Assembly: GCF_003334335.1 (NCBI RefSeq)
Contig: NZ_QOWQ01000054.1
DNA: 19,275 nt
Direction: 5' to 3' (one strand)
From: Escherichia coli
Lineage (GTDB): Bacteria; Pseudomonadota; Gammaproteobacteria; Enterobacterales; Enterobacteriaceae
Shown: one piece after another, positions 9,764 to 9,847 of the stretch
Layout: every line of letters begins with the position of its first letter
Position numbering within the stretch: the first letter of the stretch is position 1
Made by a program: the position numbers and the translations under genes
The notes under the pieces: model-generated
What the model was told of the DNA's origin: nothing
What the model saw: the letters and a program-made list of their open reading frames with translations, nothing else
The model's database searches: none

Positions 9764-9847
9764 GAGGAAAGGACATAGTATATATCGCAAGATTATAGGA
9801 TGAAAGGCCTCGGGGCTGCTTTATCCAACGAGGTCAGTCCTTTCCTC
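9764..9847. repeat. perfect 11-bp inverted repeat (GAGGAAAGGAC ... GTCCTTTCCTC) with a 62-nt spacer, 120 bp downstream of the pilin gene
   Basis: 9764..9774 is the exact reverse complement of 9837..9847; the spacer contains a second small hairpin (CCTCG ... CGAGG). Could form a long stem-loop in the operon 3' UTR; no clear U-tract, so terminator function is uncertain. Confidence 0.85.

What the first reader, a model, noticed from the sequence alone, without database searches (positions are those of the whole stretch)
9764..9847. Long-range perfect 11-bp inverted repeat in the 3' UTR of the fimbrial operon
GAGGAAAGGAC at 9764..9774 is exactly complementary to GTCCTTTCCTC at 9837..9847, with a nested 5-bp hairpin in the 62-nt spacer. 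It could form a structured 3' element (stabiliser, processing site or protein-binding site) downstream of the pilin gene; it lacks a canonical terminator U-tract.
Basis: seen in the sequence. Interest (0 to 1): 0.3.

Follow-up and report, generated by a model that had tools for sequence, protein, structure and literature searches.

The report
Stem-loop after an AAF-like pilin gene
A real 12-bp inverted repeat lies just downstream of the pilin gene of a chromosomal aggregative-adherence-like fimbrial operon in E. coli; it would close a stable RNA stem-loop, but nothing shows it is more than an ordinary, single-copy structure at the end of the transcript.

Summary
The repeat is real and one base longer per arm than reported: AGAGGAAAGGAC 9763-9774 pairs with GTCCTTTCCTCT 9837-9848, 62 nt apart. 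It is only modestly beyond chance: shuffles give 0.14 such repeats per window. As RNA the helix forms with probability about 0.98 in every context tried. It closes an 86-nt branched stem-loop (z about -4, top 1% of windows).

A second long-range stem-loop lies just upstream (9662-9743). It folds well only on the + strand.

The setting is a known E. coli chromosomal island: AAF-like chaperone, usher, AfaD-like subunit and pilin, then a dispersin homologue and Aat transporter genes. The repeat starts 119 nt after the pilin stop codon and about 170 bp before the likely dispersin promoter.

No Rfam family, tRNA, second copy or homologue was found outside this island. The island is nearly clonal, so the invariant arms say nothing, and no compensatory change exists. 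Plasmid AAF operons lack this element; three of four have a canonical terminator there instead.

Best reading (about 0.4): a generic 3'-end barrier or stabiliser, perhaps a weak terminator, for the pilin mRNA. A fortuitous, neutral repeat is nearly as likely. Low interest.

The parts
9763..9774 (+). 5' arm of the 12-bp perfect inverted repeat (AGAGGAAAGGAC)
   Evidence: paired with 9837-9848 at probability about 0.98
9837..9848 (+). 3' arm of the inverted repeat (GTCCTTTCCTCT), followed by the poor U-tail CTATTTGTTC
9779..9797 (+). inner hairpin a of the 86-nt stem-loop (SL2)
   Evidence: minimum-energy and centroid folds; one haplotype changes A9780 to G, turning an A-U pair into G-U
9798..9826 (+). 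inner hairpin b of SL2 (GGAUGAA.GGCC / GGCU..UUUAUCC).
   Evidence: the polymorphisms (C9819T and a 1-nt T insertion after 9815) fall in loop or bulge positions and fit both alternatives
9662..9743 (+). SL1, a second long-range stem-loop immediately upstream (AGCAGCAA 9662-9669 / TTGCTGCT 9736-9743 closing an AU-rich branched interior). It has five G-U pairs, so it folds well only as + strand RNA.
   Evidence: z = -2.91 and -4.31; two one-sided changes keep pairing (G-C to G-U at 9663-9742; G-U to A-U at 9680-9709)
9866..9893 (+). small AU-rich hairpin (AGAAUAUG / CGUAUUCU, -6.8 kcal/mol) followed by UUUC; a possible weak terminator 18 nt after SL2
   Evidence: not flagged by the terminator scan
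9748..9755 (+). CCTCGTTG, perfectly complementary to CAACGAGG at 9826-9833. This 8-bp helix crosses the 12-bp helix, so the two are alternatives. It is the predicted fold before the 3' arm has been transcribed.
9129..9644 (+). major pilin gene of the AAF-like operon (last gene); hypervariable between strains
   Evidence: gene order chaperone-usher-AfaD-like-pilin as in aggDCBA
10020..10059 (+). candidate AggR-type promoter of the dispersin homologue (GTTTTATTATC, 23 bp, TAGTAT). It bounds the pilin 3' region on the right.
   Evidence: using the criteria of PMC6392122; inference, not tested
10141..10488 (+). dispersin (Aap) homologue, 61-66% identical to plasmid Aap; matches Pfam Dispersin PF28204

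Best explanation
The repeat is the closing helix of an 86-nt branched RNA stem-loop (SL2, 9763-9848) in the 3' untranslated region of the pilin mRNA of a chromosomal AAF-like fimbrial operon. With the neighbouring stem-loop SL1 (9662-9743) it most likely acts in a generic, sequence-independent way. Transcription runs past the pilin stop codon because no canonical terminator is there. The stable helices then form and block 3'-to-5' exonucleases (PNPase, RNase II). This defines and protects the 3' end of the pilin message, much as REP stem-loops or terminator hairpins protect upstream mRNA. It may also add weak termination together with the small hairpin plus UUUC at 9866-9893. Shown: the sequence, the predicted stability of the helix, its position, and the absence of a canonical terminator. 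Inferred: that the region is transcribed, that the helix forms in vivo, and that it affects mRNA 3' ends or half-life.
For: The 12-bp perfect helix has pair probability 0.98 in all contexts from 92 to 640 nt, with duplex energy -19.5 kcal/mol. Fold z-scores are -3.96 and -4.17 for SL2 and -2.91 and -4.31 for SL1, and both are in the top 1% of the window. The whole stretch 9645-9950 has z = -3.23 on + against -2.69 on -. SL1 contains five G-U pairs, so it folds only as sense-strand RNA. No terminator-like site lies between the pilin stop and the dispersin start. By contrast, agg3A, hdaA and aafA on plasmids carry canonical hairpin-plus-T-tract terminators within about 50 nt of the stop. All three substitutions at paired positions within 9655-9900 keep a standard pair through G-U wobble on the + strand. 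Over the 306-nt fold of 9645-9950, five of six such changes do. The repeat lies upstream of a plausible separate promoter for the next gene, so it belongs to the pilin 3' region.
Against: There is no compensatory change anywhere, and the 12 pairs of the outer helix never vary. The conservation says nothing because the whole island apart from the pilin gene is 97-100% identical. A repeat this long arises by chance in about 1 window in 8. Similar z-scores occur inside coding regions of the same window. No equivalent element is found in related AAF operons. One strain carries IS2 inside the element. There are no transcript data. A 62-nt branched interior and a poor U-tail make it a bad intrinsic terminator.
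Confidence: 0.4

Rival explanations
1. It is a fortuitous or neutral inverted repeat. It would be a chance match, or a by-product of local duplication of purine-rich GGAAAGG-like and CCTCG motifs, in AT-rich horizontally acquired spacer DNA, with no selected function.
For: Shuffles give 0.14 perfect 12-bp repeats per window, and 12.5% of shuffles have at least one. Another 12-13-bp repeat sits inside a coding region of the same window. About 1-2% of all 92-nt windows reach a similar z-score, including coding ones. There is no covariation, no homologue elsewhere and no Rfam match. A natural IS2 insertion disrupts it in one strain. Near-copies of the arm motif (GGATGAAAGGCC at 9798-9809) and of CCTCG (9748, 9808) suggest a local repeat history.
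Against: Two adjacent top-1% structured windows lie exactly in a terminator-less 3' region. SL1 folds on the sense strand only. Every substitution at a paired position keeps a pair. None of these points is statistically decisive.
Confidence: 0.35
2. It is a specific regulatory RNA: an alternative-pairing switch, a 3'UTR-derived or antisense small RNA, or a binding platform for a protein such as CsrA. It would couple pilin and dispersin expression within the AggR-like regulon.
For: A mutually exclusive 8-bp helix (9748-9755/9826-9833) forms before the 3' arm is transcribed. Weak promoter-like sites on the - strand at 9895-9866 would drive antisense transcription through the element. Several GGA motifs are visible in the sequence. 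Antisense RNAs were reported for most pAA virulence loci in O104:H4 (PMC5066232).
Against: There is no Rfam family and no promoter-like site on the + strand just upstream. There is no terminator to define a small RNA, no conservation outside the island, and no enrichment of the arm motif elsewhere in the window. Alternative pairings of this size are common in any sequence.
Confidence: 0.08
3. It is the relic of a miniature inverted-repeat transposable element. The 12-13-bp arms would be terminal inverted repeats flanked by a possible 4-bp TATT target duplication (9758-9761 and 9850-9853).
For: Terminal inverted repeats enclose an 86-88-bp unit, and TATT is present on both sides if the arms are read as an imperfect 13 bp (read). 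The island is full of IS remnants.
Against: It is single-copy. No other copy occurs in 5,426 E. coli genomes, even in sensitive mode. None occurs in 72,556 plasmids or 50,697 phage records. A scan of 100,044 species genomes with the exact arms found only unrelated Acidobacteria repeats and the same island mis-binned in a MAG. A 4-bp flank match in AT-rich DNA with flexible boundaries is weak evidence.
Confidence: 0.07
4. It is a DNA-level element. Either the arms are two inverted binding sites for a regulator (74 bp centre to centre, allowing DNA looping), or they are the inverted repeats of a small invertible phase switch.
For: The arms are perfectly symmetric (no G-U pairs), so they are equally good as DNA sites. 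Fimbrial operons are often phase-variable (general knowledge).
Against: The arm motif is not enriched at the island's promoters or anywhere else in the window: 16 matches at up to 3 mismatches against 12.9 expected. The arms lack the TATC core of AggR-type sites. All 19 sequences, in 8 haplotypes, have the same orientation of the 62-bp spacer. There is no recombinase gene nearby. A 62-bp segment is too short for known invertases, and there is no promoter inside the spacer.
Confidence: 0.05

Closest known systems
3' stem-loop stabilisers of bacterial mRNAs (REP/BIME elements in intercistronic and 3' regions; stem-loops after major pilin genes such as papA)
   Same: A stable hairpin lies downstream of a highly expressed gene and needs no U-tract. 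It could block 3' exonucleases. Its position after the major pilin gene matches the classical logic of differential pilin mRNA stability (established knowledge, not tested here).
   Different: It is single-copy, whereas REP is a genome-wide family. It has an 86-nt branched interior rather than a simple hairpin. There is no experimental evidence for this locus.
Intrinsic (Rho-independent) terminators after agg3A, hdaA and aafA on pAA plasmids
   Same: Same position relative to the homologous gene, immediately after the AAF-type major subunit.
   Different: Those are short GC-rich hairpins with 3-6-nt loops and T-tracts within about 50 nt of the stop codon. This element starts 119 nt downstream, has a 62-nt interior and is followed by CTATTTGTTC. 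There is no sequence similarity.
Chromosomal AAF-like fimbriae / dispersin / Aat island of E. coli NCTC86 (Dunne et al. 2017, PMC5382810; Rivas et al. 2020, PMC7344145)
   Same: The window is this island. NCTC86 loci are 93% identical across the intergenic region, or about 99% apart from a 30-bp indel. The papers describe the Aat/dispersin homologues and an AAF-like chaperone-usher locus.
   Different: The passages of those papers retrieved here by keyword search do not mention the inverted repeat or the pilin 3' region. In NCTC86 the usher gene is interrupted by an IS3-family element, whereas in this window the four fimbrial ORFs are intact.
Miniature inverted-repeat transposable elements (MITEs)
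   Same: Short unit (about 86 bp) bounded by 12-bp perfect inverted repeats.
   Different: No second copy anywhere searched, no clear target-site duplication, and no matching IS ends.

Membership tests
Intrinsic (Rho-independent) terminator | Short GC-rich hairpin with a small loop (about 3-8 nt) | tested here: not met
   The 12-bp helix encloses 62 nt with two inner hairpins. The terminator scan finds nothing in 9645-10140.
Intrinsic (Rho-independent) terminator | Run of U immediately 3' of the stem | tested here: not met
   The tail is CUAUUUGUUC: the U residues are interrupted, with no run longer than 3.
REP/BIME-type mRNA stabiliser | Stable stem-loop in an intercistronic or 3' untranslated region | tested here: met
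   Pair probability 0.98 and duplex energy -19.5 kcal/mol; it lies 119 nt after the pilin stop.
REP/BIME-type mRNA stabiliser | Member of a repeated family dispersed in the genome | tested here: not met
   Only 57 places in 54 of 5,426 E. coli genomes, always at this locus.
REP/BIME-type mRNA stabiliser | Protects upstream mRNA from 3' exonucleases | not testable with these tools
   Needs mRNA half-life measurements with arm mutants.
MITE | Terminal inverted repeats | tested here: met
   12 bp perfect.
MITE | Target-site duplication | tested here: inconclusive
   TATT appears on both sides only if the arms are read as an imperfect 13 bp. This is weak in AT-rich DNA.
MITE | Multiple copies, or a related autonomous IS | tested here: not met
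Any Rfam RNA family or tRNA | Match to a curated covariance model | tested here: not met
   Only the two group II intron hits elsewhere in the window reach gathering score. The best hits at 9600-10200 are microRNA models at E of 1.9 or more. No tRNA or tmRNA.
Invertible DNA switch (fimS-like) | Both orientations in populations, plus a nearby recombinase | tested here: not met
   A single orientation in 19 sequences. No recombinase in the window or the 31 kb beyond it.
Conserved structured RNA (evolutionary criterion) | Compensatory base changes supporting the helices | tested here: inconclusive
   Across 8 haplotypes there are 0 two-sided changes and 3 one-sided wobble changes, and the outer helix is invariant. 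There is too little divergence to test.

The most novel reading that the evidence does not exclude
SL1 and SL2 together form a dedicated cis-acting RNA module at the pilin-dispersin junction. It could be a co-transcriptional alternative-pairing switch (9748-9755/9826-9833 against the 12-bp helix) or the source of a 3'UTR-derived small RNA. Either would tune pilin mRNA fate, or read-through into the dispersin gene, within an AggR-like regulon carried on the chromosome of commensal and extraintestinal E. coli.
Probability: 0.07. Interest if true: 0.45.

Novelty: new member of a known kind. Interest (0 to 1): 0.15.

Why it matters
If the stem-loops do set the 3' end and stability of the pilin message, they would explain how this chromosomal AAF-like operon manages without the canonical terminator that its plasmid relatives have. 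The operon's major subunit is the last gene. The stem-loops would also give a simple handle for manipulating fimbrial expression through arm mutations. This would be a local detail of one island present in about 1% of E. coli genomes. It would not open a new class of mechanism. The surrounding island is biologically more interesting than the repeat: an AggR-like regulator, AAF-like fimbriae, dispersin and the Aat system on the chromosome, with a hypervariable pilin. That island is already in the literature.

Tried and rejected
- Rfam, at gathering thresholds and at permissive E-values, and ARAGORN gave nothing at the locus.
- The arm motif was sought elsewhere in the window as a shared regulatory site; it is not enriched.
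- Homologues of the 496-nt spacer were sought in E. coli complete genomes (near and distant modes), plasmids and phages. Only the same island was found.
- The exact-arm pattern was scanned across 100,044 species genomes. It returned three unrelated Acidobacteria repeats made of GGACCTCAAG units, and the same E. coli island mis-binned in a 'Collinsella' MAG.
- Protein searches with the dispersin homologue and the pilin, meant to reach diverged islands, returned only E. coli relatives. Nineteen spacer sequences, from complete genomes, one GTDB MAG contig and contigs of seven pilin-allele look-ups, collapse to 8 near-identical haplotypes, so a covariation test has no power.
- DNA comparison with the regions downstream of agg3A, aggA, hdaA and aafA, and upstream of aap, on pAA plasmids found no similarity.
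- Small ORFs in the spacer (20-55 aa, and the 65-aa variant carrying the in-frame 30-bp insertion) were tested as possible gene remnants. None matches an NCBIfam model, none has a ribosome-binding site, and the 49-aa ORF is frameshifted by the 1-nt indel in other strains.
- The hypothetical protein downstream of hdaA on a pAA plasmid is unrelated to anything here and looks like a transposase (IS) fragment from its sequence (my reading).
- The invertible-switch, attC-like, retron-like and RNase III-site readings were considered and dropped. The reasons are a single orientation, no recombinase or reverse transcriptase next to it, no matching consensus, and a helix of only 12 bp.
- A metagenome scan was not run. 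The 15-billion-protein collection, which includes JGI metagenomes, already shows no moderately diverged dispersin or pilin relative that could carry a diverged copy.

Full report
**Observation.**
- GAGGAAAGGAC (9764-9774) and GTCCTTTCCTC (9837-9847) are present as described.
- The repeat is one pair longer: AGAGGAAAGGAC 9763-9774 pairs with GTCCTTTCCTCT 9837-9848, 12 perfect bp with a 62-nt spacer.
- In 200 dinucleotide-preserving shuffles of the window, perfect inverted repeats of at least 12 bp within 100 nt occur 0.14 times per window, and 12.5% of shuffles have at least one. For at least 11 bp the mean is 0.54.
- The real window has two such 12-bp repeats. The other lies inside a coding region at 15777-15823. 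The repeat is therefore real but only modestly beyond chance.

**Folding.**
- As + strand RNA the 12 pairs form with mean probability 0.98 in every context from 92 to 640 nt.
- The duplex is worth -19.5 kcal/mol. Forbidding it costs 14.8 of the element's -33.5 kcal/mol.
- It closes an 86-nt branched stem-loop (SL2) with inner hairpins at 9779-9797 and 9798-9826.
- The z-score is -3.96 or -4.17 in a sliding scan. In that scan it ranks about 17th of 1,922 windows on both strands. That is top 1%, but several coding-region windows score alongside it.
- Immediately upstream is a second long-range stem-loop, SL1 (9662-9743, AGCAGCAA/TTGCTGCT). Its z-scores are -2.91 and -4.31. It has five G-U pairs, so it folds only on the + strand.
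- The whole 9645-9950 stretch has z = -3.23 on + and -2.69 on -.
- A small AU hairpin followed by UUUC lies at 9866-9893.
- An 8-bp helix, 9748-9755/9826-9833, crosses the 12-bp helix. It is the predicted fold before the 3' arm has been made. I do not read much into this.

**What the locus is.**
- The window matches the chromosome of 54 of 5,426 complete E. coli genomes and matches no plasmid.
- The annotated order in the carrier strain is: iro remnants, chaperone, usher, AfaD-family subunit, a 'hypothetical' pilin, a 'hypothetical' 115-aa protein, IS remnants, then an ABC permease, a TolC-like protein, an adaptor, an ATPase and a carbon-nitrogen hydrolase. Group II intron and IS481 pieces follow.
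- The AfaD-like protein is 64% identical to Agg3B.
- The 115-aa protein is 61-66% identical to dispersin Aap and belongs to Pfam Dispersin, PF28204.
- The gene order matches aggDCBA, agg3DCBA and hdaDCBA.
- This is the chromosomal AAF-like fimbriae / dispersin / Aat island already described in strain NCTC86 (PMC5382810, PMC7344145).
- The repeat starts 119 nt after the pilin stop codon.
- Using the published AggR promoter rule (WWWWWWWTATC, 21-23 bp, then the -10 element; PMC6392122), a candidate site lies at 10020-10059 upstream of the dispersin gene. Similar sites sit upstream of the chaperone and aatP homologues.
- The repeat therefore lies in the pilin 3' region, about 170 bp before the next likely promoter. 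This placement is an inference.

**Comparative evidence.**
- The 496-nt spacer has no similar DNA in plasmids or phages. It has none downstream of agg3A, aggA, hdaA or aafA, and none upstream of aap on pAA plasmids.
- A scan of 100,044 species genomes with the exact arms found only unrelated Acidobacteria repeats and the same island in a probably mis-binned 'Collinsella' MAG.
- Protein searches found only E. coli relatives.
- Nineteen spacer sequences collapse to eight haplotypes.
- Across strains the pilin gene is hypervariable, with 20-47% variable columns. Everything else, including the spacer, varies at 0-3% apart from the 30-bp indel. The invariant arms therefore say nothing.
- The pair count gives 0 compensatory changes, 3 one-sided wobble-compatible changes, and an outer helix that never varies.
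- Over the 306-nt fold, five of six substitutions at paired positions keep a pair. Roughly half would be expected to by chance, so this is suggestive only.
- In strain TUM1857 an IS2 element sits at 9833-9837 and separates the arms.

**Terminators.**
- No terminator-like site lies between the pilin stop and the dispersin start.
- On plasmids, agg3A, hdaA and aafA are followed within about 50 nt by canonical hairpin-plus-T-tract terminators. aggA is not.
- The tail after SL2 (CUAUUUGUUC) and its 62-nt interior make it a poor intrinsic terminator.

**Interpretation.**
- The best-supported reading (about 0.4) is a generic 3'-UTR structure. Transcripts run past the pilin stop codon, SL1 and SL2 fold, and they act as barriers to 3' exonucleases, with perhaps some weak termination near 9866-9893. 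This would define and stabilise the pilin message.
- That reading follows from helix stability, sense-strand bias, position and the missing terminator. It is not shown experimentally.
- A fortuitous or neutral repeat is almost as likely (about 0.35).
- Less likely are a specific regulatory RNA (0.08), a MITE relic (0.07) and a DNA-level site or switch (0.05). The reasons are given under the rival explanations.
- The element fails the defining tests for an intrinsic terminator, a REP-type repeated family, a MITE, an Rfam family and an invertible switch.

**Verdict.** This is an ordinary, single-copy member of a known kind, a 3' stem-loop, and is of low interest.

Noticed in passing
window 5079-5117, 10020-10059, 12335-12373: AggR-type promoter architecture (A/T tract + TATC, 21-23 bp, -10 hexamer) lies directly upstream of all three + strand units: the chaperone, dispersin and aatP homologues. 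Only 15 such matches occur on both strands of the whole window.
   Followed up: partly
L031 28748-29545 (- strand; NZ_CP042903.1 2983747-2984544), about 1.5 kb beyond the window's right end: An AraC-family regulator of 265 aa is 37% identical to AggR over 253 aa. The chromosomal island therefore carries its own AggR/Rns-type regulator. The island abuts tRNA-Ser and ghrA.
   Followed up: partly
window 9129-9644: The pilin gene is hypervariable between strains: 12 clusters at 68-93% amino-acid identity, with 20-47% variable alignment columns. The flanking island is 97-100% identical. This pattern is typical of diversifying selection or allelic recombination on a surface antigen.
   Followed up: partly
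window 17459-17535 (-) and 18972-19049 (+); IS481-like 17882-18907: Two group II intron domain V/VI matches on opposite strands (Rfam, 54 and 51 bits) flank an IS481-family copy bounded by 28-bp inverted repeats. A maturase fragment lies at 17419-17868.
   Followed up: no
L009 (JAIJJM010000008.1, 'Collinsella sp.' MAG): This 20-kb contig is 98-99.7% identical to the E. coli island over 13.3 kb. It is almost certainly an E. coli contig mis-binned into an actinobacterial MAG that serves as a GTDB species representative.
   Followed up: yes
window after 9959: A 30-bp insertion/deletion polymorphism is present in two haplotypes (ATTGAATTTAAAAATTATGCTATAGTCAGT). It looks like an imperfect tandem duplication of the following ATTGCATTTAATTGTCAGT.
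   Followed up: partly
L016 (TUM1857) at window 9833-9837; L017 (AREA_499) at window about 10087-10095: Independent IS insertions occur in the pilin-dispersin spacer. IS2 (target duplication GTCAG) splits the inverted repeat. ISEc8 sits between the candidate dispersin promoter and the start codon.
   Followed up: yes
window 10601-10732: This is the strongest fold z-score in the window (-5.6 to -6.7 on both strands), just after the dispersin gene. It contains the only terminator-like site of the region (10677-10693). A stretch at 10619-10700 is 95% identical, in inverted orientation, to DNA about 500 bp upstream of aap on pAA of strain 042.
   Followed up: no
window 15245-15823: A cluster of four perfect 11-13-bp inverted repeats lies inside the aatB/aatC-homologue coding region. 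It includes ATATGAAACAGAA at 15777-15789 pairing with 15811-15823.
   Followed up: no
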